Origin: a virus
Reading direction: 5' to 3' (one strand)
DNA: 64,000 nt
IMG/VR virus record: IMGVR_UViG_3300032116_000088
Coordinates: 1 to 64,000 of that record
Under the pieces are notes generated by a model, which saw only the letters and a list, made by a program, of their open reading frames with translations, ran no database searches and was not told where the DNA came from. The position numbers and the translations under genes were made by a program. Positions 14 to 51,432 of this stretch are shown piece by piece (positions within the stretch are counted from its first letter, which is position 1; the number at the start of each line of letters is the position of its first letter).

Positions 14-448
14 ATGCCAGAAGCAATCTATATTGAACCATTCCCTAAAGCAAAACGTGGTGACGAATTTAAGAACATGGCTTCTTACCGTACAAACCCA
101 CACCGTGGAGTTGACTGGTCCGTACCATCAAAAACACCAATTAAAGCAATTACTGGTGGAACCGTTATGGAGACCGGTTGGACCGATGTTCTAGGAAATA
201 TCCTAGTCCAATCAACTTACGACAAGCACTTTATTCTATACGCACACCTAGCAGAACCTAGCCCACTAAAGCAAGGCGACAAAGTTGTTGCAGGTGAAAC
301 CGTAATTGGTAGAGTTGGTGGAGGTAAAGACACCCCATCAGGAACTGCATCTACCGGTGCTCACCTTCACGTTACTTATGGTGTAGTAAAGAATCTCGTA
401 ACAGCTCCGATGGATAAGCTACGCGACCTTTGGGCAAGATTTAAGTAA
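14..448 (+). CDS. M23-family peptidase, probable endolysin (catalytic domain only)
   Basis: HRGVD (HxxxD), LYAHL and AHLH (HxH) zinc motifs; SD AAAGGA upstream. Confidence 0.85.
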   Translation: MPEAIYIEPFPKAKRGDEFKNMASYRTNPHRGVDWSVPSKTPIKAITGGTVMETGWTDVLGNILVQSTYDKHFILYAHLAEPSPLKQGDKVVAGETVIGRVGGGKDTPSGTASTGAHLHVTYGVVKNLVTAPMDKLRDLWARFK

Positions 449-564
449 TGCAAGGTTCACTAGGACATCCGGCTCTTAGCTCCAAGATAACTTGGGGCGG
501 AGGCGGCCGTCCCGTTGGAGAAGGATTTGGTGGAGGATACCGAATCAAAAAGGGTCTAAAATAA
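448..564 (+). CDS. 38-aa Gly-rich micro-ORF (MQGSLGHPALSSKITWGGGGRPVGEGFGGGYRIKKGLK), not in ORF track
   Basis: TAATG overlap with endolysin stop; fills the gap up to the next gene. Confidence 0.5.
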   Translation: MQGSLGHPALSSKITWGGGGRPVGEGFGGGYRIKKGLK

Positions 565-10976: not shown

Positions 10977-12269
10977 ATGGCTACCATTTCTAGCCTTGTT
11001 GACAGAGTTCGTTTAGAGCTCGGTGATATTGGAAAATCCTTTGTAACTAAATTTGTTGCCGATGGTACTACAAATAGATTTAAATTGCATTACGCTCCCC
11101 TAGATGCAACTACAGTAGTTGTGTATGCTGGAACAACGGATATTACTGAAAGCAGTTTTATTGAAGAGTCCACCGGAGTCCTTGTTACTGAAGATGTACT
11201 AGATGACATGACTGAAGTCACTGTCAGTGGTACATACTATCGTTATTTTACCGGAGCTGAATTAAACACTATTGTTAATGACGCTATTTCCCAGCATTGT
11301 TTGGGAAGAGTAGACTCTTTAGGTAGAAAACTTGATTCAACTACTTTACCTTTTGTTGAAGAATACCCTGTAGCTATTTATGCTACAACTATTGCTTTAT
11401 ATACACTAGCCACTGATTCCGCTTTTGATATTGACATTCAAGCTCCAGATGGCGTCACCATTCCTCGTGCAGAGCGTTTCCGTCAGCTTATGGAAATGGT
11501 TCAAACAAGACAACAACAATATAGGGAGCTGTGTGTTCATCTTGGTGTTGGTCTTTACAAAATGGAAGTGTTTACGTTTAGACGTATCTCTAAAGCAACT
11601 GGACGTTACATTCCTGTTTACAAGCCTCAAGAAGTTGACGACCGCTCATACCCAGCAAGAGTTGACGATTCAGCACCAACATACGGAGATAAGCAACCTG
11701 AATGGCCAACTACTGATGTTGAATTAACTGCATATCAAGGTCGTGCATTTAGCACTACTCTTACTTATACTGGAACTTATGCCGGTAAGTCATTTACTGC
11801 TAAACTACTGAACCAACGTGGTTCGGTAGTTGTTGTGCAAAACTTTACGATTAGCATTAATACAGACGGAACAGATGTGATTACCGGTGCTTCCAGAACT
11901 TCTGGAAGTAATGTTATTACTATCACTACTAGTGCAGCCCACGGTTTATCGGTAGGAAATAGCATTGTTATTACAGGAGTTGATTCTACTGTAAATGGTG
12001 TATACACAGTAGCAACTTCCGGGTCTACTACGTTTACTGTAGCCGGTACAGAAACTACAGCACTATCTTTAACTGAATTAACAGGTCAAGTAGAAACAAA
12101 CGTCTCTAAAGCTTATACTTTTATACTCTCATTGACCGCTGACCAGACTCGTCGCATTGCAGAAAGAACCTATTGGTCTTTATCTACAGTAGACGATTTT
12201 ACTGGAGAAGTTATAGAAATTAAGAGCGGAAACTTCTTTACTACACGAGTAAATAAGGCAGTAATATAA
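10977..12269 (+). CDS. Head-tail adaptor / neck protein with an inserted beta-module
   Basis: [12 protein letters not shown]-terminus typical of connectors; [13 protein letters not shown] module near the C-terminus. Confidence 0.65.
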
Positions 12270-15378: not shown

Positions 15379-17904
15379 ATGGCTAGAAGTATACTCACTC
15401 CGCTAACTATAACTACTGGTGGAAACACTATAACATCCTCCGCAGCTGCATCAGTGCCTTTGGTACTAAAAGGTGCAGCTAGCCAGTCTGGAAGTTTGCT
15501 GTCTTTTCAGAACGATAGCGGAACCGTTATAGGTAACTTCACCGCTCCAGTTAACAACGTCCCTAGACTAAATCTCGGGTCAACTGATTTAGGTGCAACT
15601 GTAGGTATCAACGGTCACGCAACTGGTGGAGTCACACTAGCTATTAAAGCAATCGCGTCCCAGACCGCCGATATGCAACAGTGGATTAACAGCGGAAACT
15701 CCGTGCTTGCCAAGGTAGACCAAAATGGTTTTGCTGTGTTTGGTGGAGCCACAGTACTTTCTAACTCTGTTCTTTCTGTGTCCCCTTATGGAACTACGCA
15801 AGTAGGATTAACCATAAAGGCCACTAGCGGTCAAAGTGCTAATCTACAAAACTGGCAGGATAGCACACCCACTACAGTTACAAGCATAAACTCCGCTGGC
15901 TTATTCTCTACTACTAGAAACATAACAATTGCTGAGACAAATGCTGGAGAAAACGCGCTTGTTATTCGAGCTGCTTCAAACCACACGGGCTACCTCACTC
16001 TTTGGCAAAACTCTTCTTCTGTAAACGTAGCTGGCATAAACGCCCCAGGTCAAGTATGGACTGGGTCTTCATTGCCAGTTAATGGTTCCACAACTGTTGC
16101 AATCAACACTCAAACTCCAACAGGCACAACAAATATTACAATTACAACTGCCGCAGCCCACGGTATTTCTGTTGGCCAAAACGTTACTATTGCTGGAATT
16201 ACTCCGTCAGGTTACAATGGAAACTGGATTGCTCAGTCTGGAACTACTGGGTCTACCCTTGTAGTAAACATCGGTTCTAACCCCGGAGCTATCACAGTTG
16301 CAGGAACCGTTGCTCAATCCGCTCAAATATCTTCAACCCCTTCATCCACAAACGCTACTGGCTTAGTAATTAAAGCACTAGCAAGCCATGCAGCAAATTT
16401 ATTTGAGGTACAGTCTAGCACCGGCTCAGTTTTAGCCAGAATTGCATCCACCGGTCAGTTCTTAGCTCCTAGCATTGTTGGTAGCGCTTTCCAAATAACT
16501 TCTGGAGGTGTGTTTTCTAATGGCTCTACTTCTGCTCCTGCAAATACACAAGCCTATTTCTTAACTACTGCTGCAACTAACGTGGGTCTTGTTGTTCGCG
16601 GTGCAGCAAGCCAATCCGCCGATACATTCCAAATACAGAACTCCTCGGGCACCGTACTAGCAAAAGTAGACTCTGGTGGAGTTATTTCTACAAGCAGTTT
16701 TTATAACTTTACTAACTCAACAAACGGTATTGCTGTTCAAGGAACTTATGCATTGCGGTTCAATGGAACTTTGTCAAACTTTGGAACTGGAACAGTCACT
16801 GGTACAAAAGTAGCTATAACTAATGACACCGCTGGTAATACAGGTTTGCGTGTTCAGGGTGCAGCAAGCCAAACAGCCAATCTCCAAGAGTGGCAGGACT
16901 CAAGCGGAAACGTTCTTTTAGCTATTACATCAAGCGGAGGAATTGGAACCTCCGGGTTAACCGCAATAAGAATAGACGCTAACAGAAACGTAGCACTTAA
17001 TTCAAACTCTGGTTCATATGGAAATGGTCAAGCAGTTACGTTTATTGGAAATGCCACCACGGCACCAACAGCCAACCCAACTGGCGGTGGAGTTCTTTTT
17101 GTTGAAACAGGCGCTCTAAAGTACCGTGGAACATCTGGCTCTGCTGCAACAATTGTAAATGCTGATGGAACTATGTCGGGTGGTGGTGGCTCATTTACTG
17201 GCGGTACACTAACAAGCAACCTCACTCTAGCTGCTGGAACAACTTCACTTTCACCACTAACATTCCAGTCAGGAACAAACCTGACCACAGTTACTGCTGG
17301 TGCTAACGAGTATGACGGAACGGTTTTCTATCAGACCTCTAACACTAACCCTGGTAGAGCATTAGCAACACAAAACTACTATTACGCTTCTAGTTCCTCT
17401 TGGTTGCCAGATTTCTTTAATTCTGGAAGCGTTCAAGGTATGCTTGGTGGTGCTACAAAAGGCATTACTCTTGCTGCTGGAACTACTTACGAGTATGAAC
17501 TTTATGCAACTGTTCAACATCAGTTTATTTCTAATACTGGTGTCACAGGAACTTATCAAATGGTATCTAGTACAGTTTCTGGTTCTCCTACAGTTGCCGT
17601 AGTTCATCAGGTAGATTATGGTAGCAACACCACAAACTTTACAACTGCAACAACTCTAACCACTGTTAGGACCACAGGAACAGTAGTATTTTCTGCAGCA
17701 ATATCTTCTGGTTCTAGATATAACTTCTTGAGGGCTAAGGGTATAATTAGAGTAACCGGAACAGGAACAGCAAAAGTATATCCGGGAATATCTACATCTC
17801 AAGTTGGAGCGTCTGACAATATTTGGACAGTTCAAGAAGGTTTAGTATTCAAATTAACTCCAATTGGAAATGGTACAGCAACTACTGTAGGAACGTGGGC
17901 ATAA
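15379..17904 (+). CDS. Fibre protein 2 with seven internal repeats; putative receptor-binding protein
   Basis: Repeated (G/A)AASQ(S/T)A.L..WQ.SSG.VL units; 841 aa. Confidence 0.8.
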   Translation: MARSILTPLTITTGGNTITSSAAASVPLVLKGAASQSGSLLSFQNDSGTVIGNFTAPVNNVPRLNLGSTDLGATVGINGHATGGVTLAIKAIASQTADMQQWINSGNSVLAKVDQNGFAVFGGATVLSNSVLSVSPYGTTQVGLTIKATSGQSANLQNWQDSTPTTVTSINSAGLFSTTRNITIAETNAGENALVIRAASNHTGYLTLWQNSSSVNVAGINAPGQVWTGSSLPVNGSTTVAINTQTPTGTTNITITTAAAHGISVGQNVTIAGITPSGYNGNWIAQSGTTGSTLVVNIGSNPGAITVAGTVAQSAQISSTPSSTNATGLVIKALASHAANLFEVQSSTGSVLARIASTGQFLAPSIVGSAFQITSGGVFSNGSTSAPANTQAYFLTTAATNVGLVVRGAASQSADTFQIQNSSGTVLAKVDSGGVISTSSFYNFTNSTNGIAVQGTYALRFNGTLSNFGTGTVTGTKVAITNDTAGNTGLRVQGAASQTANLQEWQDSSGNVLLAITSSGGIGTSGLTAIRIDANRNVALNSNSGSYGNGQAVTFIGNATTAPTANPTGGGVLFVETGALKYRGTSGSAATIVNADGTMSGGGGSFTGGTLTSNLTLAAGTTSLSPLTFQSGTNLTTVTAGANEYDGTVFYQTSNTNPGRALATQNYYYASSSSWLPDFFNSGSVQGMLGGATKGITLAAGTTYEYELYATVQHQFISNTGVTGTYQMVSSTVSGSPTVAVVHQVDYGSNTTNFTTATTLTTVRTTGTVVFSAAISSGSRYNFLRAKGIIRVTGTGTAKVYPGISTSQVGASDNIWTVQEGLVFKLTPIGNGTATTVGTWA

Positions 17905-23501: not shown

Positions 23502-25457
23502 ATGGCGACTTATAATCGTCCCGGAGTGTTCATCAATGAGCTTCCACTGGCCGCAGCACCAGTAACTACAGCTGCAACAGCCAACGCGGCAGGTGCAGTT
23601 GTTGCATCTTTCGCTAAAGGCCCTGACCAGATTACTAGAGTAACGTCATGGTATGACTTTACCCAGAAGTTTGGTAATTATGATAAAGAATATCCTGCAA
23701 CATTTGGTGTGGGTTCATTCTTTAAAAATGGTGGAACTGAGCTTTATGTAAAGCGCGTTCTTCCAGCCGCATCAAAGAAGGTTGCAAAAGCTACTCTAAC
23801 TATTGCTTCTGGTGGTTCTGGTACTCTATGTACTTTTGCTGCTAAGAACCGCGGTGTTAGCGGAAACAGCCTTCGCATCAAAGTTACCCCTTCAAAGACA
23901 ATCAGAGAAGCAGGCTACTATGACCTAAGAGTTTATGTGGAAAATGCAAATCCAGCAACTCCTAGCGACACTAATGATGACATTCTAGTTGAAGAGTTTA
24001 ATGGAATTGTTTTCCACGATGCTTTATCTGGAGATTATGTAACTACTGTTTTGGGCTTTAACTCTTCTTATGTAAAAGTTCTAGAAGGAGTAGTAACTGA
24101 GTATGACGACAATGGTGTTGAAATTAGCCCAAAGGTAAACTACACTGTAGCAAAGAATGTTGCTTATATTCCTAGCTCAAGCGTAGTCTCTTTTAGCGGT
24201 GCACCAACAACTGCACGTAGCCTAACTTATGCTGACTACACTGGAAACACTGTTTATAACCCAGTTGCAGGAACCGGTACTTTTGCGGTTTCCGATTGCT
24301 CTGTTATCAAAGAGTTTGAAGTAGTTAACCAGCCACTAGTATTCTTCCTTCCAGATGTAGTTGGAACTGTAAAGAATAACTCTGTAGCTAAAAGCGCAAC
24401 CATCACTAACAGTGCTCGTACTGGAAGTCTAGTAACCATTACTACTTCTGAAACTCACGGATTCCTTGCAGGAGATACCGTAGTAGTTGCAGGAACTAAT
24501 GGAAACCCTTCTATCGAGGGAACTTGGGTAATTACCGAAGTTAATGCTGGAGCTAAAACCTTTAAGTATAACAGCACTGCAACAGGCACCATTACTTCTG
24601 CAGCCGATACTGGTACTGCAGTCGTTAATCCAACTGGTGGTTGGGGAGTAGCGCAGTACGTTTACAAGGCTCTTCTAAACTGGGTTGAGACTGACGATTC
24701 AAGTAAGCGTCACTTTGTGATTGTTGAAACTGAATCTGACTTGACTGTTAACCAGGCGCTTACCGCATCAGGTGATTTAGTTGAAGTTAGCCGTGGAGCC
24801 GTTTATTACCCACACATCTACATTAAAGACCCACTAGGTAGGTCTGGAAGTTCTATCCGTAAGATTGGTCCATCAGGTCCTGTAGCAGGTTTGTTCCTTG
24901 CAACAGACCGTCGTGTTGGTCCATTCAAGGTAGCTGCCGGTATCGACTCTCAGGTATACGATGCACTTGCTCTAGAGCGTGCATTTACCCCAGCAGAGCT
25001 TGACCAGTTAAACTCTGGAACTGATTCTACTGGTTCTATTAATGGAAAGAATGTTGTAAACGCTCTTCGTAACCTTCCAGGTGCTGGAATTGTTGTAATG
25101 GGTGGACGTACTCTTCTTCAGGATGGTACTGCAAACCGCTACATCAACATGCGTCGTTCACTATCGTATATTGAAAAGCGTCTAAATGACCTTGCATCAT
25201 TTGCGGTATTTGAAAACAACACAGAGACCCTGTGGTCTAGACTCATCACAGTTCTAGGTGTATTCCTAAACGACTACCGTAACCAAGGTGGTCTGCGTGG
25301 AACTACTCCAGAACAGTCATTCTACATTAAGTGTGACGATGAAAACAACACCCCTACAACAATCGCTAATGGAGAGGTTCACGTCGAAATTGGTGTGGCT
25401 CTTGAATACCCTGCAGAGTTTGTTGTCATCAACCTCAGTCAAAAGACTGCAGAATAA
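23502..25457 (+). CDS. Tail sheath protein
   Basis: YNRPGVFINE start; GGRTL, RYINMRR, FAVFENN, FYIKCD, PAEFVVI. Confidence 0.95.
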   Translation: MATYNRPGVFINELPLAAAPVTTAATANAAGAVVASFAKGPDQITRVTSWYDFTQKFGNYDKEYPATFGVGSFFKNGGTELYVKRVLPAASKKVAKATLTIASGGSGTLCTFAAKNRGVSGNSLRIKVTPSKTIREAGYYDLRVYVENANPATPSDTNDDILVEEFNGIVFHDALSGDYVTTVLGFNSSYVKVLEGVVTEYDDNGVEISPKVNYTVAKNVAYIPSSSVVSFSGAPTTARSLTYADYTGNTVYNPVAGTGTFAVSDCSVIKEFEVVNQPLVFFLPDVVGTVKNNSVAKSATITNSARTGSLVTITTSETHGFLAGDTVVVAGTNGNPSIEGTWVITEVNAGAKTFKYNSTATGTITSAADTGTAVVNPTGGWGVAQYVYKALLNWVETDDSSKRHFVIVETESDLTVNQALTASGDLVEVSRGAVYYPHIYIKDPLGRSGSSIRKIGPSGPVAGLFLATDRRVGPFKVAAGIDSQVYDALALERAFTPAELDQLNSGTDSTGSINGKNVVNALRNLPGAGIVVMGGRTLLQDGTANRYINMRRSLSYIEKRLNDLASFAVFENNTETLWSRLITVLGVFLNDYRNQGGLRGTTPEQSFYIKCDDENNTPTTIANGEVHVEIGVALEYPAEFVVINLSQKTAE

Positions 25458-27096: not shown

Positions 27097-29664
27097 ATGG
27101 CCGATAGCCTTCAAGGATTGATTGCTCAGCTTAAGCAGGCTGAGAAGGTCGTCGATTCATTAGTAAGTAAGTCCGCAAAAGTTAATAATAACTTAAACGG
27201 AGGGTCTGGAGGACCCGGCAGCGGCGGAATGCCTTCAGCAAAAGACATGTCTGCCGCTATGGGTAAACGCACTGCTTTAAGGACTGGTGGTAATTTAGCT
27301 GCTGGTGCTGGTACTCGAATAGGAATGGGTTTACTTGGTCTTCAACAACCAAGTTCTTTTGACATTAATGGTGGTCCTGGCCAATTTGAGCGAATGCAGG
27401 AAATTAAACGCAATAACGAAGCTAAAATGGAGCGAATGAAAGACAGAGCTCAAACGGCTTATCTTGGAATGCGTGGAATTAGTAATCGTAAAACACAAGT
27501 AATGTACGACAGCAATGGGGACCCCGTTTTAGATGCAAATGGGCAAGTTAAAATGCAGTCACGTTTTTCTGCACTATCTCCAGCCGCTCAAACAAATATT
27601 ACCAGCAGTATGTATGGTATTTCTGACACTTTAAAATTAATGCAAGGTATGCAAAATGCGTTTAATACTTTCTTACCTAGTGTCGAAAAAACAATGGGAA
27701 GGGCAGCAAGCTACTATAACGCTGGAATTTATACTGGAACTGCTCCAGGAACTATACAAGACGCTACTTTTGGCCGACTAAAAGCAATGTCTGCAATAAC
27801 CTCTGTTGGTTCGGATGCTAAAGTTGCTCAGCTTCTTGCTAGTAGAGGGATGTCTGCTAATCAAAAAGTATATGGAACTACCATTAATACTATTGGTAAT
27901 GCTGCCAGATATATGAATATTGCTAATGAAGAAGCTGCCGCATCTATTGAAGGATTAACTAATGCTAAAGGTGCCGCTGAGATGTTGCGAAACTTTGGTA
28001 TTTATACTGCTGATTTAGCTACTGGAGAAGAAAAAAGCCAAGGACAAATTTTTGAAGAACTGGCTCAAAGACTTACGGCAGGTAGAGGCCAAGCTACACA
28101 AGAACAAACACTAAAGTCTATTCGTAGAGGCGCTCTAGGAGTAACTATTGACTCTTTCTTTGCTGGAGATAAACAGGGCGCTCAGATGTTTAAGCAGTAT
28201 ATGGTGGACAGGTCTAAGGGCGGCAATAATGTTGACTTATCTTCATCTACTGATGTTACTAGTGCTTTAAGTTCTAAAAATCCTTTGGCTGCACAAATGG
28301 CTGTTGATACATCAGCTACTGAAGCACTAGGTATGTCTCAAGAGCAATACATAAAAGGAATTAACCAAGCAAGCAATGCTCTTCAAGTATTAAATAAAGC
28401 AGCTGGTGGGTTAGCATCAGCTTTAGGTGCCAGCTCAGCCATGATTCAAACTTTGTTTGGGTCTGATACTGTTAAGGGACTAATTGGTGGAGCAAGTACT
28501 TTAATTGATTTTACTAGTAAAGGAATTGCTGGTATAGGTACTGCTTTGATGGGAATGGACGCATTAAACCCTGCCCCTGCACTTGCTCAAGCGGGTATTA
28601 TTGCTGGTAGTATGGGCCTAAGTCTAGGTGCTGCTGTTGCTACGACAGGAGTAGCACAACTAATCGGAGGATTTGGTGGATTTGGTGGTGGAAATACTGT
28701 CACTAGAAGTATTGGTGGAGTGGGTGATGGTGGCTCAGCCGGTAATTTATTTGATATGGGGCAAGTTGAATCTGGACATGGAGTTAACGAGGCTTTAGGA
28801 ACTAAAAGAAGTGATGGAACGACTCACGGAGGAACTGATTACAACTACTCCTATGGAGATGCTGTAAAAGCTGTTGCAGACGGTGTTGTTACTGTAGCTG
28901 TAAACACCCACAAGTATCAAGACAATAGCGGACGTAGCATGGGAAACTACGTTTGTATTTTACACACCGCTGCTGATGGAAAAGAATACACATCAATTTA
29001 TGGACATCTGTCCGAAGTGTTTGTTTCAAAAGACCAAGTAGTTACTAAAGGTCAAACAATTGGTAAAGCAGGAAATACTGGAAATACTCGACCAAAAGCA
29101 ACGAACTATGACCCTTATGCCGGTACTCATTTACACTTTGAAATTAGAGAAGGAAGACAAACTGTTGGTGGAGTAGGAAAATCAGTATCTCCTCAGGCAG
29201 CAAAAACAATTGGGTCTACTGGAGCATCAACACTGGGGTCTTCAAATACTCCAGGAGCTTCAACTTCTTTTGCCTTAGACCAAAAATTAACTCAAGAGCA
29301 GTTTACTGCGGCACAAAGTCAAATGGCAGTTCCTGGTAATGTCCAAGGAGCAATGACCGCATTGGCTGGAATATACTCTGGTGACACAGATAAAATATTA
29401 AGTTCTCTTCAAGCTATGTCTGCTGGAGTTGGAGTAACTCCTAGTAACTGGAAAGCAGGATTAAGTCAAAATCCGGCTATATATTCGGGTGCAGGACCTA
29501 CTCCTGGAACACCTGGTCAGCCAAAACAAAATACTGTAAATAATAATGTGAGCATTGTTGTTCAAGTTCCGGATGTTACATCCGCTGATGCAGTTAAATT
29601 TGCTCAACTTGTAAAACAATACCTAGATGATAATTCATTGCTATCTAACACCGGAGGTATCTAG
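27097..29664 (+). CDS. Tape measure protein with M23 peptidase domain
   Basis: Ala/Gly helical body; HGGTD, YGHLS, HLHFEIR. Confidence 0.85.
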   Translation: MADSLQGLIAQLKQAEKVVDSLVSKSAKVNNNLNGGSGGPGSGGMPSAKDMSAAMGKRTALRTGGNLAAGAGTRIGMGLLGLQQPSSFDINGGPGQFERMQEIKRNNEAKMERMKDRAQTAYLGMRGISNRKTQVMYDSNGDPVLDANGQVKMQSRFSALSPAAQTNITSSMYGISDTLKLMQGMQNAFNTFLPSVEKTMGRAASYYNAGIYTGTAPGTIQDATFGRLKAMSAITSVGSDAKVAQLLASRGMSANQKVYGTTINTIGNAARYMNIANEEAAASIEGLTNAKGAAEMLRNFGIYTADLATGEEKSQGQIFEELAQRLTAGRGQATQEQTLKSIRRGALGVTIDSFFAGDKQGAQMFKQYMVDRSKGGNNVDLSSSTDVTSALSSKNPLAAQMAVDTSATEALGMSQEQYIKGINQASNALQVLNKAAGGLASALGASSAMIQTLFGSDTVKGLIGGASTLIDFTSKGIAGIGTALMGMDALNPAPALAQAGIIAGSMGLSLGAAVATTGVAQLIGGFGGFGGGNTVTRSIGGVGDGGSAGNLFDMGQVESGHGVNEALGTKRSDGTTHGGTDYNYSYGDAVKAVADGVVTVAVNTHKYQDNSGRSMGNYVCILHTAADGKEYTSIYGHLSEVFVSKDQVVTKGQTIGKAGNTGNTRPKATNYDPYAGTHLHFEIREGRQTVGGVGKSVSPQAAKTIGSTGASTLGSSNTPGASTSFALDQKLTQEQFTAAQSQMAVPGNVQGAMTALAGIYSGDTDKILSSLQAMSAGVGVTPSNWKAGLSQNPAIYSGAGPTPGTPGQPKQNTVNNNVSIVVQVPDVTSADAVKFAQLVKQYLDDNSLLSNTGGI

Positions 29665-31031: not shown

Positions 31032-31307
31032 ATGATATATACAGATAGTAGATATGCAGATGGGTTAATACTTAAAGCCCAAGATGCAAGAACTGAAACT
31101 TATAGGCTAGCGGTTTACCGTAAATTTCCTGATGCAAAGTTTCCGTTTTATTATTACACCTGGGTACTTGGCGATAGAATTGATTTAGTTGCTAATGATT
31201 TATTAGGTAGTCCTAATTTTTGGTGGAAAATTATGGATGCTAATCCTGAAATTATTGACCCATTTTCAATCTCAATAGGTGCGACAATAAGGATTCCTAG
31301 TGTCTGA
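31032..31307 (+). CDS. LysM / tail X-like baseplate protein
   Basis: GDRIDLVA...LG...WWKIMDANPEIIDPF.I..G..IRIP. Confidence 0.85.
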   Translation: MIYTDSRYADGLILKAQDARTETYRLAVYRKFPDAKFPFYYYTWVLGDRIDLVANDLLGSPNFWWKIMDANPEIIDPFSISIGATIRIPSV

Positions 31308-32571
31308 TGTTTTTGTTGGTAAATATAGGAAAGGAACCAATACTTCGGTTTCTTTTCCTACTTTACCCTCTTTAAGTGCCCAACCAAGAAGAATTGACCT
31401 TATTCAAAAACAATACTCTCATGATGTTTTAGTATTAGAATACCCTGCAGAAAGCCTTTTATGGTTTGACTCACTAAAGACAGGGGTTCCTATTCAGTTT
31501 TCTTGGAACCAAAATACTCTATATAAAAATTGGATTGGATACGTGTCTTCTATTTCAAAAAACAATGCTCCTCAAAGAATGAACTCTATGAAAGTTGTTT
31601 GTGTTGGAAGCTCTTTTCCGTTAAAAGATAGGGTAGCTAGAGTATTTGAAGACTCCTCTATACCTAATGCTGTTCGTAGAATTGTTGAAGAATACGGGTT
31701 TAGATATATTGGAGATGACAATGGCCAATTATTTTCTCAGCTAACTATAGCCGGTTTAACTTATTGGGAATGGATTGTTGAACAAGCTAAACGTATTGGA
31801 TATGGGATTATAGTTGATGGCATGAACTTTATTTTTAAACCGATAGATAAGCTTATAGATTTTGGGTTTAGTAGTGCTGCGGTTCTTAGTATGGGAGATG
31901 CAACTATCCCTTTTAACTCTCAGGCTTTAGATAGGACTCTTGATATTTTTAATGTTATTAGCGGAGATAACATAGAAGACACAGTTAATTTTAGAACAGT
32001 TAAAAATGTGGGTGGAGTTGACCCTGTACTAAACACCCCGTATTTTTCTGAAGCAAGTCCAGCTGATATTGGAAACGGTCTACGAAGCAATACTAGTGAC
32101 GTTTTATTTTCAGAGTATAGAACAGATAGAGTTATTTCTAACTCATTATCAGCCAAAATTGAAGCAGAAGGTGCGGCAGAACTAGCAAGATTTAACTTAC
32201 CAGCTAATATTATGGGTCAAGGAGACCCTAAAATTAGGCCATTTTCTACAGTATTTATTTCTGGAACGGGTAATTTAACAGATGGTTTTTGGATTGTAAA
32301 AGAAGTTAAACATATGTTCCATAAAATTGGGGAATATATGATTGATTTAAAAATAGCCACAGATGGTTTAGGGGATACCATTGAAACTTCTTTTAGAACC
32401 AGGGATTCTTCTTCAGTTGGGCTTATAAACTCTTCAGAAGCAGTAAAAAATAACGGAATTTCGCCTGTTTATTTCAACATGGACGCCGTAGAGCTAAGTT
32501 CAACTGATATGATAGTAAAAGAAGGAAATCAAGGTTATAAAAGAACTATTCAGCAATGGAAGGCACGATAG
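31300..32571 (+). CDS. Baseplate hub (gpD / gp27-like)
   Basis: WEWIVEQAKRIGY; GDPKIRP...G.W.VKEVKH. Confidence 0.8.
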   Translation: MSDVFVGKYRKGTNTSVSFPTLPSLSAQPRRIDLIQKQYSHDVLVLEYPAESLLWFDSLKTGVPIQFSWNQNTLYKNWIGYVSSISKNNAPQRMNSMKVVCVGSSFPLKDRVARVFEDSSIPNAVRRIVEEYGFRYIGDDNGQLFSQLTIAGLTYWEWIVEQAKRIGYGIIVDGMNFIFKPIDKLIDFGFSSAAVLSMGDATIPFNSQALDRTLDIFNVISGDNIEDTVNFRTVKNVGGVDPVLNTPYFSEASPADIGNGLRSNTSDVLFSEYRTDRVISNSLSAKIEAEGAAELARFNLPANIMGQGDPKIRPFSTVFISGTGNLTDGFWIVKEVKHMFHKIGEYMIDLKIATDGLGDTIETSFRTRDSSSVGLINSSEAVKNNGISPVYFNMDAVELSSTDMIVKEGNQGYKRTIQQWKAR

Positions 32572-32580
32572 GAGTACAAA

Positions 32581-32988
32581 ATGGCTAATTCAGAAGTTGC
32601 TTTAAAGCTACCCCTGTCTTTAGATGAGTCAGGTAATTTACGTATTGCAACTACTCAAAAGGATATTTGGGCAGACAGAGTGCGTATTGCTCTTGGAACT
32701 AGAATAACTGAGCGAGTAATGCGTCCGGATTATGGGACAACTATAGGGGCGGCTCTTTTTGAAACTGTAAGCATTACTAGTGAAGCTATTACTAAAGAGA
32801 TTAGAAGAGTATTTCACGAACAGTTTTCTCTGCTAACTTTAACCTCTGTTGTTCCTTCTTATAACGAAGCTTCAAGTACACTTACTATTACCGTAATCTA
32901 TTTACTTCCTAATAAAGAAGAAGTAGTTACTGAAATAGGAGTAGTAACCGTTTCTAGCACAGCCAGCCCTTTTGAGGAGTTATCATGA
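32581..32988 (+). CDS. Baseplate wedge gp25-like protein
   Basis: LGTRITERVMRPDYGT. Confidence 0.88.
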   Translation: MANSEVALKLPLSLDESGNLRIATTQKDIWADRVRIALGTRITERVMRPDYGTTIGAALFETVSITSEAITKEIRRVFHEQFSLLTLTSVVPSYNEASSTLTITVIYLLPNKEEVVTEIGVVTVSSTASPFEELS

Positions 32989-35900
32989 CAGCACCAGCAA
33001 ATAAAGTCCCTTTATCAGTAGACTATACTGGTAGAGACTATTACTCTCTTAGAAATCAATTAATTGAGAGAGTTAAAGAAAGAACAAACAATAATTGGCA
33101 GGGAAATGACCCCGCTGATTTTGGTGTTGCTATTATTGAGTCATTTGCATATATGGGTGACTTGATTAACTACTATATTGATAGAGTTGCAAATGAATCG
33201 TACATTAAAACAGCAACTCAAAGAGATACCCTAATTAATCTAGCCAAAATGTATGGCTATACTCCAACAAACTATGTTAGTTCGATTGTTGATTTACAGT
33301 TTTCAAGCACAAATGGCTATTACGGAAATATTGGAGCTGCAATTATTGAGTCTGGGGTAATTGGAGGAACTACATACACTAATTTAGCTAAAATTATTGT
33401 TCCTAATGACCAACCATTCTCTGTTGGAGATACTATTAGGGTAACTGGTATTCCTACTACTGTAAATGGAACTATTGCAGATACTCCTGTTGTCTATAAT
33501 ACAAGTGTTTATAATGGACAATTTGTTGTAGAAAGTATTGGCTATAATAATATTGGTAGAAATGTTATTTGGTACCAACCAAAAGCAACAATTAGCAACA
33601 TTTCTTTAAGTGGAACAACTTTTACTGTTACTTCATCAGGCTCTTTAAATCCATTTGAGGGTCAAAAAATAAAAATAAGTGGAGTATCTGTTACTGGTTC
33701 TACTAATAATTACAATGGAAATTGGACTGTAGACTCTACAACTTCTGCAACTGATTTAGCTCCAGCAACATTTACTGTTGATGCATCTCTAAACGCTGCA
33801 GATATTACTCATATTCATTCAGATGGAACCACTGTAAGGTTTTCGGCTTGGAATGACTTTATTGTGGGTCAAAAAATAAATGTTAGAGATGTAATTAGCT
33901 CTGACAATACAGGGGGTACAGCTGGTTCTGGATACAACTTTACTGGTGCTACCGTCTCTTTAGTTAAAACAATTGATGCTTTGGTTACTGGTGCCACTTT
34001 TAGTGGAACGGGTTCTGGACAAATAGTTACCTTTAAAACAAATAAAGAGTTTGCTATTAACGATATTATAAGTATTACTGGGGTTAGAAGTGCTGGAAAT
34101 CCGAATGCCACTGCAGATTTAGGGTTTAATTTTGAAGATACCATTGTAGCTAGTTCTGGTTATGATAGTGCAAATATTACAGACGTTCTTGGAAACATAT
34201 CTAATACTGGTTTTATTACATTTACAACAGCTGCAGCGCACGGATTTTTTCCTGGGGAATACGTTACAATTTCTGATGTGGAAAGTACATCGGGAGGAAC
34301 AACAACTTCTGTTTACGATATGCAATCAGTAAAAATTATATCTACTCCTTCAGACACAACATTTAAGGTTGAAGGTTATTTTACAGATGAGTTTGTTTCT
34401 GGTGGAATTGCAAAAAGATATAAATTTACAGTTTCTGCGCCGGCTTCTGAGCGTGGCACAGATTCTTTACCTGCTGGTGGTCACATTACTTGTAGACAAT
34501 TTGAGGTAACAAGTAGTCAAAATACAACTGTAACCAGTGTTTCTGGGGCAACCGCAACTGCACAAGTTGGGGGAACGTACAGTGCCGGTGGTACTGTTTA
34601 CTACTCCGAACTTCCCGCGTTACTTGTAAATGGTCAAATTAGAGAATATGGTTTTGATGTTGTTCCACAAGGAACCCAGGTTACAGCTCAAGTCACGGAT
34701 GCCGGGTCAACCAGAACGCTTAGTTTTATTACCCAAAGTGACTCTATAGTTCCTTATAGAGGGTCTACAGATACTCCTGTTTTAGCAATTCAGGGTGAAG
34801 ACATCTCTTTGCGTGCAGAAAACTTGGCTGATTTATCTGCAGTATCGTATGATATTCCAGGTGAAAAACTAGGATTTTCTAAAGGAACTCCTGACCAGTC
34901 CTTTTATTTAAAAGAGACTCAGGTTGATTTAAGCACTATTAAAGTTTATGTAGACAATGGCCTTGAATTTGAAGAATGGCAACAAGTACAGCATATTCGT
35001 GATTATGCTGCTGGAGATAAAGTATTTGATGTTATTGTAGAATCTTCAAATAGAATTGCAATTAATTTTGGTGATGGGATTTCTGGTGCCATTCCTACCT
35101 CAGAGGCTACTATAAAAGCTACTTATATTTATGGTGGAGGAGTTATAGGAAATGTTGGTGCTGGAACAATCACAACAATCGGAGATATTCCAGGCCTAAC
35201 TCTTTCTGAGCAAACCTTATTAAGGTCAAAAATAACTGTAATAAATATGGCGGCTGCAGCCGGTGGTGCTGACCCAGAAACTAACGATAGCATTAGGTAT
35301 AACACCCCACGTTCTTTAAGAAGTTTAAACAGGGCGGTTACTTTAGAAGATTTTGCTAATTTAGCATTGACTGTTCCGGGTGTTGCAAAAGCAAATGCTA
35401 CTGCAACAAACAGAAGTAACGTGACCGTGTACGTTGCTCCCGTACAATCCGGGTCATCGGATTTATATCCTGGAATTATTGGTAACGTTGAAACAGGAAT
35501 ATATGAGATTACAACTCAATTAGACTATCTTTTAACTACTGGTGTTCCTGATTTTGTTAATGATAAAAAATCTATTGGAACAACCGTAACGTATTCTCAA
35601 CCAACGTATACTAACATTTCCGCTGCAATAACATACTCTCCTTTGCCACAGTACTCAAGTGCAATTGTAGAAGCAAACCTAAAAGCTGCTTTAGTTACAG
35701 AGTTTTCTTTTAATGAGGTTCAATTTGCAGATGTAATTACTCCTGAAGAAATTGAGTTTAAACTTCGCCAAGTAAGCGGTGTAAGAAATGTTAAGATAAC
35801 AAGCCTGTATAGACAAGGTGGCTCAGGCCGCAACAGCCTTGTCGGAACTCCTGATGAAATATTTGTATTCCAAGAAAGCAATATTACATTAACAAAGGCA

Positions 35901-36218
35901 CTGAGCTTATCTACATTAACTTCTTTGACCTTAGTTGCCAAAAATTCTTCTGGCAGTGTTGTTACTCCAGTAACTTTCTCAAAGACATTTAATTCTTCGG
36001 TTTATAACTATATAATTACTGTTCCAGCAACTACTGCATCACTAACTGTAACACCTACTTCAACAGACAATACCGCATCTATAACCGTTAATGATGTTGA
36101 AATTAGTAGCGGAGATAGCTCTATAGTAACAACTCTAAACAACCCAATAATTATTACCGTTACTGCCAGTGATGGTATAACAGTAACTAGTTATGCATTA
36201 AACATTACAGGAATTTAA
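32985..36218 (+). CDS. Baseplate J-like wedge protein with large beta-module insertion and C-terminal Ig/cadherin-like domain
   Basis: DYTGRDY, DRVANESY, FGDGISGAIP, GGADPET, RAVTLEDF; TVTASDG.T..Y. Confidence 0.9.
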   Translation: MTAPANKVPLSVDYTGRDYYSLRNQLIERVKERTNNNWQGNDPADFGVAIIESFAYMGDLINYYIDRVANESYIKTATQRDTLINLAKMYGYTPTNYVSSIVDLQFSSTNGYYGNIGAAIIESGVIGGTTYTNLAKIIVPNDQPFSVGDTIRVTGIPTTVNGTIADTPVVYNTSVYNGQFVVESIGYNNIGRNVIWYQPKATISNISLSGTTFTVTSSGSLNPFEGQKIKISGVSVTGSTNNYNGNWTVDSTTSATDLAPATFTVDASLNAADITHIHSDGTTVRFSAWNDFIVGQKINVRDVISSDNTGGTAGSGYNFTGATVSLVKTIDALVTGATFSGTGSGQIVTFKTNKEFAINDIISITGVRSAGNPNATADLGFNFEDTIVASSGYDSANITDVLGNISNTGFITFTTAAAHGFFPGEYVTISDVESTSGGTTTSVYDMQSVKIISTPSDTTFKVEGYFTDEFVSGGIAKRYKFTVSAPASERGTDSLPAGGHITCRQFEVTSSQNTTVTSVSGATATAQVGGTYSAGGTVYYSELPALLVNGQIREYGFDVVPQGTQVTAQVTDAGSTRTLSFITQSDSIVPYRGSTDTPVLAIQGEDISLRAENLADLSAVSYDIPGEKLGFSKGTPDQSFYLKETQVDLSTIKVYVDNGLEFEEWQQVQHIRDYAAGDKVFDVIVESSNRIAINFGDGISGAIPTSEATIKATYIYGGGVIGNVGAGTITTIGDIPGLTLSEQTLLRSKITVINMAAAAGGADPETNDSIRYNTPRSLRSLNRAVTLEDFANLALTVPGVAKANATATNRSNVTVYVAPVQSGSSDLYPGIIGNVETGIYEITTQLDYLLTTGVPDFVNDKKSIGTTVTYSQPTYTNISAAITYSPLPQYSSAIVEANLKAALVTEFSFNEVQFADVITPEEIEFKLRQVSGVRNVKITSLYRQGGSGRNSLVGTPDEIFVFQESNITLTKALSLSTLTSLTLVAKNSSGSVVTPVTFSKTFNSSVYNYIITVPATTASLTVTPTSTDNTASITVNDVEISSGDSSIVTTLNNPIIITVTASDGITVTSYALNITGI

Positions 36219-36220
36219 TA

Positions 36221-36490
36221 ATGATAAAAGACTCTTATGGTAATGCTAGATTTTATGGGGTCTACCGTGGCGTAGTTTTTGATAATAACGATAAACAAAA
36301 TCTTAAAAGACTACGCCTCCAGGTCCCACAAATTTTAGCCGACCAGCCAACTCATTGGGCATGGCCTGTGGAAACTCCTGGAGTAGCCACAAACACGCCT
36401 AAAATTGGGCAGGGAGTTTGGGTAATGTTTGAGGGTGGTGACCCCTCCTATCCTATCTGGCTAGGAGTTTTTGGTACTGAGGTGGTTTAA
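36221..36490 (+). CDS. gp5/gpV OB-fold protein (spike base only)
   Basis: YRGVV.DNND...RLRLQVPQ...P.IGQGVWVMFEGGDPSYPIWLG. Confidence 0.88.
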   Translation: MIKDSYGNARFYGVYRGVVFDNNDKQNLKRLRLQVPQILADQPTHWAWPVETPGVATNTPKIGQGVWVMFEGGDPSYPIWLGVFGTEVV

Positions 36491-51083: not shown

Positions 51084-51432
51084 TATTTACGAATTGGAAT
51101 GGGTTGATGATGCAGCTTGCACTATGGCCCCAAATCCTGATATATTCTTTCCACCAAGAAATAAAGACCTGTATAAACCAATAGCTGACGAGGCTAAAGA
51201 ATATTGTTTTGGAATTGAAGGAGAAAGACCGCCATGCCCAGTAAGAAAAGAATGTCTTTGGTCTGCTGTACAATCAGAAGAACAACATGGTATATGGGGT
51301 GGGCTATCTCATAGAGAACGTAACGCTCTCGTTCGTAAATGGCAAAGACAGTACAAGGATAAAATGACTTTGAAAGAATACATCTTTCAATTAAATAAGA
51401 AGGAAAAAGCAAATGCCGGTATCATCAAGTAA
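51070..51432 (+). CDS. whiB: WhiB-family transcription factor
   Basis: AAC...PDIFFP...AKEYC...CPVRKECL...GIWGGLSHRER. Confidence 0.92.
   Translation: MELNSIYELEWVDDAACTMAPNPDIFFPPRNKDLYKPIADEAKEYCFGIEGERPPCPVRKECLWSAVQSEEQHGIWGGLSHRERNALVRKWQRQYKDKMTLKEYIFQLNKKEKANAGIIK

What the first reader, a model, noticed from the sequence alone, without database searches (positions are those of the whole stretch)
33330..34640. Matryoshka (five-deep nested) domain insertion in baseplate J
Seen: about 430 aa interrupt baseplate J with five copies of the module I.....T.T.T....H.F..G..V.I.GV....YN. Only the innermost copy (~34164-34415, TFTTAAAHGFFPGEYVTISDV...TTFKVEGYFTDEFVSGGIA) is complete. Copies 1-4 lack their closing segments, which then follow in reverse order: YKFTVSAP...AGGHI, RQFEVTSS...SGATA, VGGTYSAGGTV, YSELPALLVNGQI. 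Inference: each domain is inserted into a loop of the previous one, giving a double-stranded stalk projecting from the baseplate rather than beads on a string.
Basis: partly seen in the sequence, partly recalled or inferred. Interest (0 to 1): 0.7.

Follow-up and report, generated by a model that had tools for sequence, protein, structure and literature searches.

The report
Five nested barrels in baseplate J
A tail-baseplate protein of an uncultured 90-kb phage carries five copies of one small beta-barrel domain, each threaded into a loop of the one before like Russian dolls, a build published for a bacterial RNA polymerase but, as far as I could find, not for a virus particle.

Summary
The gene at 32985-36218 (+), 1077 aa, is a baseplate J protein. 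A beta-hairpin that has a 16-residue turn in Streptomyces phage BRock holds about 447 extra residues here (109-555).

- **Fold.** The innermost module (398-477) is a complete E1-FCCH-type barrel: UBA6/UBA1, Z 11-12, rmsd 1.5-1.6 Å over 76 residues.
- **Open copies.** Four upstream copies match only the front part of that domain.
- **Closing pieces.** Added in reverse order, they carry profile alignments to the end of the domain for copies 2-4.
- **Model.** AlphaFold2 gives pLDDT 91 and pTM 0.82 for residues 96-600. Single 66-87-residue barrels from the PDB align to model spans 111-555, 200-541 and 329-505, so those domains are discontinuous.
- **Natural empty site.** In 45 shorter homologues domain 2 is contiguous. 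Residues 273-526 here are an insertion in its last loop.

Nesting is therefore well supported. Level 3 rests on profiles and the model only. Copy 1 is weakly FCCH-like by sequence. I could not read model coordinates, so the stalk shape is inferred. The function, probably a rigid surface-binding leg, is also inferred.

Published precedent is the cyanobacterial RNA polymerase Si3 insertion. Unchecked notes of this scan report deeper nests of similar barrels in other phages' baseplate proteins.

The parts
32985..36218 (+). Baseplate J gene, 1077 aa (P0001). Its start overlaps the stop of the gp25-like gene.
   Evidence: Pfam Baseplate_J 32 bits, cut-off 21.1; Foldseek to solved gp6/J-type baseplate chains, E 9e-18 to 1e-4
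32985..33314 (+). J N-terminal helical region (res 1-100) and the outgoing strand of the host hairpin (res 101-110).
   Evidence: BLASTP to BRock J residues 8-97; AF2 helices 17-89 with low pLDDT in the monomer, strand 101-108
33315..33587 (+). Barrel 1, N-side piece (res 111-201). Outermost in sequence and divergent; strands 1-5.
   Evidence: HMM E 0.12 only; hhalign 89-91% over 18 columns; VIA rows spanning model 16..460 with 72-86 aligned residues
33588..33800 (+). Barrel 2, N-side piece (res 202-272), strands 1-5.
   Evidence: HMM E 1.5e-8, profile 6-69 of 82; contiguous with its closer in the short homologues; VIA span 105..446
33801..33980 (+). Barrel 3, N-side piece (res 273-332), strands 1-4.
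   Evidence: HMM E 1.8e-4, profile 7-58; hhalign with C3 reaches profile column 72 of 73
33981..34175 (+). Barrel 4, N-side piece (res 333-397), strands 1-4.
   Evidence: HMM E 2.9e-5, profile 4-56; VIA span 234..410 with 87 aligned residues
34176..34415 (+). Barrel 5 (res 398-477). Innermost in sequence, the only contiguous and complete copy, and presumably the tip.
   Evidence: Pfam E1_FCCH 2-70/70, E 1.6e-4, 22.1 bits, below cut-off; UBA6/UBA1 FCCH Z 11.2-12.1, rmsd 1.5-1.6 over 76 aa
34416..34493 (+). Closer of barrel 4 (res 478-503), strands 5 and 6.
   Evidence: hhalign N4+C4 extends from profile column 54 to 71; AF2 strands; VIA span 234..410
34494..34565 (+). Closer of barrel 3 (res 504-527), strands 5 and 6.
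   Evidence: hhalign N3+C3 score 66.0 against 52.3 for N3 alone, the best of four closers; stitched D3 against D4, 99% over 79-80 columns; F506 invariant
34566..34604 (+). Closer of barrel 2 (res 528-540), strand 6.
   Evidence: Aligns with the C-end of the contiguous domain 2 of the short homologues; hhalign N2+C2 is the best of four closers
34605..34649 (+). Closer of barrel 1 (res 541-555), strand 6.
   Evidence: Colinear with the short homologues; VIA span 16..460; Y540 and P544 nearly invariant
34650..35954 (+). Return strand of the host hairpin and the baseplate J core (res 556-990).
   Evidence: BLASTP to BRock J 114-475; Pfam Baseplate_J 715-921; PHROG baseplate wedge subunit
35955..36215 (+). 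C-terminal Cadherin-like beta-sandwich (res 991-1077).
   Evidence: Pfam PF12733, E 1e-8, residues 996-1075

Best explanation
**Shown.** The baseplate J (gp6-type wedge) protein of this contractile-tailed phage has a roughly 447-residue outgrowth in one beta-hairpin. The outgrowth consists of five small six-stranded barrels of the E1-FCCH type.
- Each barrel is inserted into a late loop of the previous one. Barrels 1 and 2 are split between strands 5 and 6. Barrels 3 and 4 are split between strands 4 and 5.
- The chain therefore runs out through four half-built barrels, makes one complete barrel, and finishes the other four on the way back.

**Inferred.**
- Every junction is crossed twice. The segments at the junctions are predicted as beta-strands running from one barrel into the next, 16-20 residues long at the two distal junctions. 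The array should therefore be a fairly stiff rod with barrel 5 at its tip.
- From the known stoichiometry of two J subunits per wedge, about twelve rods would sit on each baseplate.
- The same barrel is an exposed decoration on siphophage tail tubes. By my recollection it is a sialic-acid-binding insert in phage endosialidases. The rods most likely act as stand-off legs or adhesins that touch host surface polymers.
- Their length would be set by nesting depth, which runs from two to at least five levels among homologues, with added tandem or branching copies.
For: - **J identity and insertion site:**
- **Repeat with truncated front copies and one complete copy:**
- **Fold:** UBA6/UBA1 FCCH Z 11.2-12.1, rmsd 1.5-1.6 Å, 76 aa, 16-25% identity. 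K1F and phi92 endosialidase barrels score Z 8.2-8.9. T1 and FCWL1 tail-tube-region chains score Z 8.4-8.6.
- **Discontinuous domains:** AF2 pLDDT 91.1 and pTM 0.82. VIA spans 16..460, 105..446 and 234..410 have only 66-87 aligned residues.
- **Closers complete the profile:** each closer fits the copy with the matching cut type. Stitched D3 and D4 align over 79-80 columns at 99%.
- **Empty-site homologues:** 45 proteins of 766-805 aa have a contiguous domain 2. Their HMM splits at 272 | ~527.
- **Grammar in homologues:** of the 38 automatically read architecture patterns, only one (the distant P0126) does not end in a complete copy. P0055, read by eye, has four closers for four open copies.
- **Conservation** falls from base to tip: 0.71, 0.71, 0.60, 0.50, 0.59.
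- **Exposed FCCH decoration on tail tubes:** PMC13576161.
Against: - No coordinates or contact map could be read. Nesting rests on first and last aligned residues, secondary structure and profiles.
- Level 3 has no discontinuous structural row.
- Copy 1 is not significantly FCCH-like by sequence.
- The closers alone are not detected by a generic HMM. For barrel 4 the non-cognate closer C3 scores slightly better than C4.
- The AF2 alignment holds only 44 fairly close sequences, so the model may lean on learned domain shapes.
- No homologue with three or four levels was found to bridge the two-level and five-level forms.
- Rod shape, copy number per virion and any binding function are untested. 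No ligand site was examined.
Confidence: 0.8

Rival explanations
1. Tandem array with degenerate ends. The five copies would be beads on a string whose last strands have decayed, and residues 478-555 would be a separate small domain or linker.
For: A generic C-part HMM does not recognise the closing pieces. Pfam sees only one FCCH copy.
Against: - N-side copies lack one or two barrel strands and could not close alone.
- Closers extend profile alignments to the domain end.
- VIA spans are discontinuous.
- The short homologues show C2 and C1 directly continuous with their barrels.
- pTM 0.82 is unusual for beads on a string.
Confidence: 0.05
2. The nesting is real but the array is only inert packing or a structural strut. 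It would brace the wedge, or dock the downstream 702-aa fibre-like protein or the sheath, and would have no role in touching the host.
For: - Basal barrels are as conserved as the J core, 0.71 against 0.72.
- The same barrel is inserted in the sheath and in two other virion proteins of this phage, which fits a general building or decoration module.
- No ligand site was identified.
Against: - Distal barrels vary most.
- Copy number and branching change freely among homologues, which is typical of exposed, host-facing parts.
- Related barrels sit on exposed surfaces of tail tubes and in endosialidases.
Confidence: 0.3
3. Prediction artefact. AlphaFold may impose a familiar barrel on repetitive Thr/Gly/Val-rich sequence, and the real insert may be differently folded or partly disordered.
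For: The alignment is shallow (44 sequences). There are no templates and no experimental data. I could not inspect the coordinates.
Against: - All five models score pLDDT 88.6-91.1.
- Sequence-only evidence is independent of the model: HMM truncation pattern, closer complementarity and empty-site homologues.
- Residues inside the closers are invariant or nearly so: F506, F481, Q505, G530, Y540, P544.
Confidence: 0.07

Closest known systems
Si3 insertion of cyanobacterial RNA polymerase beta' (eight SBHM domains; PMC10895346; called a six-level nested structure in PMC13114784)
   Same: - One small beta domain family is inserted recursively into itself.
- Several domains are built from distant chain segments.
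- The result is a 150 Å elongated body growing out of one loop of a conserved host protein.
   Different: - The fold differs: sandwich-barrel hybrid motif there, FCCH-type barrel here.
- The host is an enzyme's trigger loop, not a virion protein.
- Si3 is branched and mobile. This array is a single unbranched chain of five levels in this protein.
E1 FCCH domain (Pfam PF16190; UBA1/UBA6) and its copies on siphophage tail tube proteins (PMC13576161; T1 9l0f, FCWL1 9jlf)
   Same: Same six-stranded barrel: Z 11-12 to UBA6/UBA1 and Z 8.4-8.6 to the tail-tube-region chains. On phage tubes it is an outward-facing decoration.
   Different: Those are single contiguous domains fused at a terminus or inserted once. 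Here the Pfam score is below the family cut-off and the domain hosts further copies of itself.
Beta-barrel domain inserted in the propeller of phage endosialidases (K1F 1v0e, phi92 4hiz)
   Same: Structurally similar barrel: Z 8.2-8.9, rmsd 2.3-2.4 over 76-77 aa. It is also an insert in a loop of a phage tail protein.
   Different: It is a single copy in an enzyme. Its sialic-acid-binding role is my recollection of the K1F structure paper and was not checked here. No ligand residues were compared.
Baseplate J / T4 gp6 / Mu gp47 / CIS Cis11-Afp11 wedge proteins
   Same: Pfam and PHROG matches, fold matches to many solved baseplates, and gene order with gp25-like and gpD-like genes upstream.
   Different: The closest isolated relative, BRock gp128 (505 aa), has a 16-residue turn where this protein has about 447 residues.
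Self-nested barrel arrays in giant cyanophage and jumbo-phage baseplate proteins
   Same: Same principle in the same part of the virion. Foldseek against BFVD ranks large Synechococcus-phage structural proteins among the best matches of this insert.
   Different: Those notes describe 15-21 copies up to eight or nine levels deep in 5,000-8,600-residue proteins. This one is a compact five-level chain in an ordinary-sized J protein of a phage with WhiB genes. The notes are unpublished and I did not verify them.

Membership tests
Baseplate J (Pfam PF04865; gp6-type wedge subunit) | Sequence match above the curated cut-off | tested here: met
   32.0 bits against a cut-off of 21.1, residues 715-921; PHROG 219 baseplate wedge subunit, E 4e-33
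Baseplate J (Pfam PF04865; gp6-type wedge subunit) | Fold shared with solved J/gp6 chains | tested here: met
   Foldseek probability 1.00, E 9e-18 to 1e-4, to S. coelicolor CIS, P1, T4 gp6, Mu, pyocin R2 and others. TM-scores are low because of the extra domains.
Baseplate J (Pfam PF04865; gp6-type wedge subunit) | Position in a baseplate gene cluster next to gp25/W | tested here: met
   gp25-like gene at 32581-32988, YQBQ/gpD-like at 31300-32571, sheath, tube and tape measure upstream. BRock has the same order.
E1_FCCH domain (Pfam PF16190) | Sequence match above the curated cut-off | tested here: not met
   The innermost copy scores 22.1 bits against a cut-off of 29.5, although it covers profile positions 2-70 of 70 (E 1.6e-4). 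The other copies are not detected. I therefore call it FCCH-type by fold, not a Pfam family member.
E1_FCCH domain (Pfam PF16190) | Six-stranded barrel superposable on the UBA1/UBA6 FCCH domain | tested here: met
   Barrel 5: Z 11.2-12.1, rmsd 1.5-1.6 Å, 76 of about 80 residues, 16-25% identity. Barrels 2-4 relate to barrel 5 by profile at 95-98%. Barrel 1 reaches only 89-91% over 18 columns.
Recursive self-nested domain insertion (as in RNA polymerase Si3) | Domains built from sequence-distant segments that enclose another domain | tested here: met
   VIA spans 16..460, 105..446 and 234..410 with 66-87 aligned residues. Level 2 is confirmed by empty-site homologues. Level 3 rests on profiles and the AF2 secondary structure only.
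Recursive self-nested domain insertion (as in RNA polymerase Si3) | Host and guest belong to the same domain family | tested here: met
   Stitched D2-D5 align pairwise at 86-99% hhalign probability in at least one direction (D2 against D4 is the weakest at 67/86%); D3 against D4 is 99% over 79-80 columns. D1 is inconclusive.
Recursive self-nested domain insertion (as in RNA polymerase Si3) | Physical contacts between the N-side and C-side pieces of each level | not testable with these tools
   Model coordinates are not exposed, so only ranges, pLDDT, pTM and DSSP strings were available.

The most novel reading that the evidence does not exclude
Nesting depth may work as an evolvable ruler. Each added barrel lengthens a stiff leg crossed twice by the chain, with about twelve legs per baseplate. 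Phage lineages would then tune the stand-off distance and reach of the baseplate to the thickness of the host's surface layers by inserting or removing whole barrels at a few permissive loops. This would be a general way for phages to build rigid rods from one small domain, distinct from trimeric fibres and from beads-on-a-string Ig arrays.
Probability: 0.3. Interest if true: 0.7.

Novelty: new variant of a known kind. Interest (0 to 1): 0.5.

Why it matters
- **Topology.** Tandem repeats are the usual way to lengthen a protein. Here length comes from recursion, which gives every joint two chain crossings and should make a much stiffer rod.
- **Tractable test case.** The array is 447 residues, unbranched and confidently modelled. 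Natural relatives provide the two-level empty-site form and forms with extra or branching copies. This makes it a small system for studying how discontinuous domains fold co-translationally, since four barrels must wait for their last strands.
- **Design and annotation.** It could guide the design of rigid nested scaffolds. For phage work, it flags a variable, probably host-facing part of a baseplate protein that standard annotation reports only as 'baseplate J'.
- **Domain finders.** Sequence-based tools that assume contiguous domains undercount such arrays. Pfam saw one sub-threshold copy out of five.

Tried and rejected
- **Generic C-part HMM.** An HMM of the last two strands scored the orphan closers at or below 1.2 bits, no better than reversed sequences. 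I replaced it with profile-profile tests.
- **Pfam on the separate copies.** It found only weak, unrelated hits for copy 1 (MS_channel_2nd, CDC48_2) and nothing for copy 2.
- **Foldseek of the insert against the PDB.** It was dominated by meaningless whole-chain alignments to birnavirus VP2 and similar proteins (TM 0.08-0.1). Only the UBA1/UBA6 rows had probability 1.00.
- **Model coordinates.** I looked for them in the script box to compute a contact map. None are provided.
- **Intermediate forms.** I looked for three- or four-level homologues among 126 proteins and found none. The forms seen are two-level, five-level, or five-level with extra contiguous copies.
- **Automatic architecture strings.** They are noisy because copy 1 usually falls below threshold.
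- **Literature.** One search ('nested domain insertion' or 'phage') was too loose to be useful. A search for the endosialidase barrel's binding site found no paper that settles it. 'FCCH' with 'baseplate' or 'bacteriophage' returned only tail-tube work.
- **Minus-strand ORF.** The 91-aa ORF at 33869-34144 lies inside the gene; I did not examine it and assume it is a chance frame.
Full report
**Setting.** The window is the first 64 kb of a complete 90,667-bp virus record with direct terminal repeats.
- It encodes a terminase, portal, major head protein, tail sheath, tube and tape measure, so it is a contractile-tailed phage.
- Two WhiB genes point to an actinobacterial host. With about 40% G+C, I would guess a low-GC freshwater lineage. 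That is inference.
- The gene in question runs from 32985 to 36218 on the + strand and encodes 1077 aa (P0001).
- It follows a gp25-like gene and a gpD/YQBQ-like gene. An 89-aa OB-fold (Phage_base_V) protein and a 702-aa protein with a weak carbohydrate-binding match follow it.

**It is baseplate J with an insert.**
- Pfam Baseplate_J scores 32 bits against a cut-off of 21.1. The C-terminus is a Cadherin-like sandwich. PHROGs call it a baseplate wedge subunit.
- The full-length AF2 model matches gp6/J-type chains of many solved baseplates: S. coelicolor CIS, P1, T4, Mu and pyocin R2, with E 9e-18 downward.
- The nearest isolated relatives are Streptomyces phages of the BRock group.
- BRock gp128 (505 aa) aligns as 8-97 with residues 10-100 here, and 114-475 with residues 559-943.
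- A 16-residue hairpin turn in BRock is therefore replaced by about 447 residues (109-555).

**The repeat.**
- An HMM of the innermost copy from 44 homologues finds four more copies upstream. All four are cut short at the profile's C-end.
- A broader domain HMM built from 166 complete copies, searched against all 127 ORFs of the window, gave these results:

| Copy | E-value | Profile positions covered (of 82) |
|---|---|---|
| 2 | 1.5e-8 | 6-69 |
| 3 | 1.8e-4 | 7-58 |
| 4 | 2.9e-5 | 4-56 |
| 5 | 1.2e-20 | 3-79 |
| 1 | 0.12 | 25-49 |

- For the separate front-part profile, reversed sequences never exceed 7.2 bits.
- So four copies are solid and the first is marginal by sequence. Only the fifth is complete.
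- Pfam names the fifth as E1_FCCH over the whole profile, but below the family cut-off (22.1 against 29.5 bits).

**Do the closing pieces belong to the open copies?**
- On their own they are too short and divergent. A C-part HMM gives them 1.2 bits or less.
- I therefore stitched each N-side piece to each closing piece in the 44-sequence alignment and aligned the result to the profile of the complete copy (73 columns) with hhalign:

| Piece tested | Last profile column reached | Score |
|---|---|---|
| N2 alone | 60 | 36.4 |
| N2 + C2 | 72 | 43.4 (best of four closers) |
| N3 alone | 52 | 52.3 |
| N3 + C3 | 72 | 66.0 (best of four closers) |
| N4 alone | 54 | 50.2 |
| N4 + C4 | 71 | 56.0 |
| N4 + C3 | 72 | 60.2 |

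- The one-strand closers C1 and C2 add little to N3, which lacks two strands. C2 carries N4 only part of the way (column 63, score 55.0). The two-strand closers carry N2 no further along the profile and add less than half the score gain of C2.
- Stitched D3 and D4 align to each other at 99% probability over 79-80 columns. That is longer than either N-side piece, so their closers are homologous too.
- D1 gains nothing from C1 by this test.
- Several closer residues are invariant or nearly so in the family: F481, Q505, F506, G530, T531, Y540, P544.

**Structure.**
- AF2 of the whole protein gives pLDDT 85-94 through the insert.
- AF2 of residues 96-600 alone gives mean pLDDT 91.1 and pTM 0.82, with all five models at 88.6 or above.
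- I could not obtain coordinates, so I used the structural aligner's ranges. Model residue m corresponds to protein residue m+95.
- The innermost barrel (model 297-383) superposes on the FCCH domain of UBA6 and UBA1 at Z 11.2-12.1, rmsd 1.5-1.6 Å, 76 residues, 16-25% identity.
- It superposes more weakly on the inserted barrel of phage endosialidases (Z 8.2-8.9) and on T1 and FCWL1 tail-tube-region chains (Z 8.4-8.6).
- Other single barrels of 66-87 aligned residues align to wide model spans:
  - EF-Tu domain 2, aIF2-gamma domain 2 and ribosomal-protein chains align to 16..460.
  - Riboflavin synthase and LumP align to 105..446.
  - A siderophore-interacting-protein barrel aligns to 234..410.
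- A compact domain of about 70-85 residues cannot include residues 176-445 apart in sequence unless it is built from an N-side and a C-side piece. This is structural support for levels 1, 2 and 4. These rows have Z 5.7-7.7, which is in the range the tool calls common, so they show shape and not kinship.
- No such row appeared for level 3.
- The strand pattern fits as well. Each open copy has strands 1-4 or 1-5, and its closer supplies the rest.
- Predicted strands also run straight from one barrel into the next on both legs: protein residues 322-340 and 383-402 outbound, 469-484 and 500-509 on the return. Together with the high pTM, this is my basis for calling the array a stiff rod. It remains inference.

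**Natural controls.**
- The protein search found 213 relatives of 766-1400 aa, all from metagenomes or uncultured phages.
- A scan of 1.8 billion cluster representatives with the insert alone found only 18 clusters, nearly all of this J family.
- Forty-five relatives of 766-805 aa have barrel 1 open, one complete barrel inside it, and one closer.
- Their profile aligns to P0001 as two colinear pieces: nodes 1-238 to residues 1-272, and nodes about 239-770 to residues about 527-1075. The break falls in the last loop of their complete barrel.
- That barrel is therefore barrel 2 without its insert, and residues 273-526 are an insertion within it.
- Other relatives carry extra complete barrels at three further points. 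They lie before barrel 1's front piece, between barrels 1 and 2, and around closer 3 (protein positions about 513-521). One relative, read by eye, has a barrel in an early loop.
- In all but one of the 38 automatically read architecture patterns the last detected copy is a complete one. The exception is the distant protein P0126.
- Mean pairwise identity in the closest 17 proteins falls from base to tip: 0.71, 0.71, 0.60, 0.50 and 0.59 for barrels 1-5, against 0.72 for the J core.

**Function.** Nothing here tests function.
- The barrel type is an outward-facing decoration on siphophage tail tubes (PMC13576161) and an insert in endosialidases.
- In this same phage, single complete copies also sit in the sheath and in two other large virion proteins.
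- Copy number is fluid, and the distal barrels vary most.
- I therefore favour a host-facing leg or weak adhesin at roughly even odds. The rival is a purely structural strut.
- From established baseplate structures, which have two gp6/J subunits per wedge, there would be about twelve such arrays per virion.

**Novelty.**
- Recursive insertion of one domain family into itself is published for the Si3 insertion of cyanobacterial RNA polymerase. There four of eight SBHM domains are discontinuous and the body is 150 Å long (PMC10895346).
- A 2026 survey of 48,551 insertion events singles that case out as its six-level extreme (PMC13114784).
- I found no paper describing such a build in a virus particle or with FCCH-type barrels.
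- Unchecked notes of this scan report the same principle, deeper and branched, in giant baseplate proteins of cyanophages and jumbo phages.
- Consistent with those notes, large Synechococcus-phage structural proteins are among the best BFVD matches of this insert.
- This is therefore a further and unusually compact instance of a build that seems common in phage baseplates, not a one-off.

Noticed in passing
window 11865-12068 (in ORF 10977-12269), 16087-16314 (in ORF 15379-17904), 24387-24605 (in the sheath gene 23502-25457): Single complete copies of the same barrel module occur in three other virion proteins of this phage, including an insert in the tail sheath. The family HMM gives E 6e-9, 2e-10 and 6e-7. 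Pfam does not detect them.
   Followed up: partly
window 51100-51330 (+); also G000:C1:69266-69454 (-), outside the window: There are two WhiB-family genes, both above the Pfam cut-off. They point to an actinobacterial host, although the genome has only about 40% G+C.
   Followed up: partly
window 27097-29664: The 855-aa protein in the tape-measure position carries a peptidase / metallo-endopeptidase-like stretch at residues about 564-741 (PHROG hits).
   Followed up: no
window 36221-36490: An 89-aa protein consisting only of a Phage_base_V OB domain lies directly downstream of J, before a 702-aa protein with a weak CBM_4_9 match. This may be a minimal spike or adaptor.
   Followed up: no
homologue P0055, residues about 413-545: Read by eye, one barrel of this 1249-aa relative hosts a complete barrel in an early loop (between strand 1 and strand 2). 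That would be a further insertion point beyond the two late loops used in the window's protein.
   Followed up: partly
window 35955-36215: J ends in a Cadherin-like beta-sandwich (PF12733). It is absent from BRock J and from a number of the longer homologues, according to the precomputed Pfam column.
   Followed up: no
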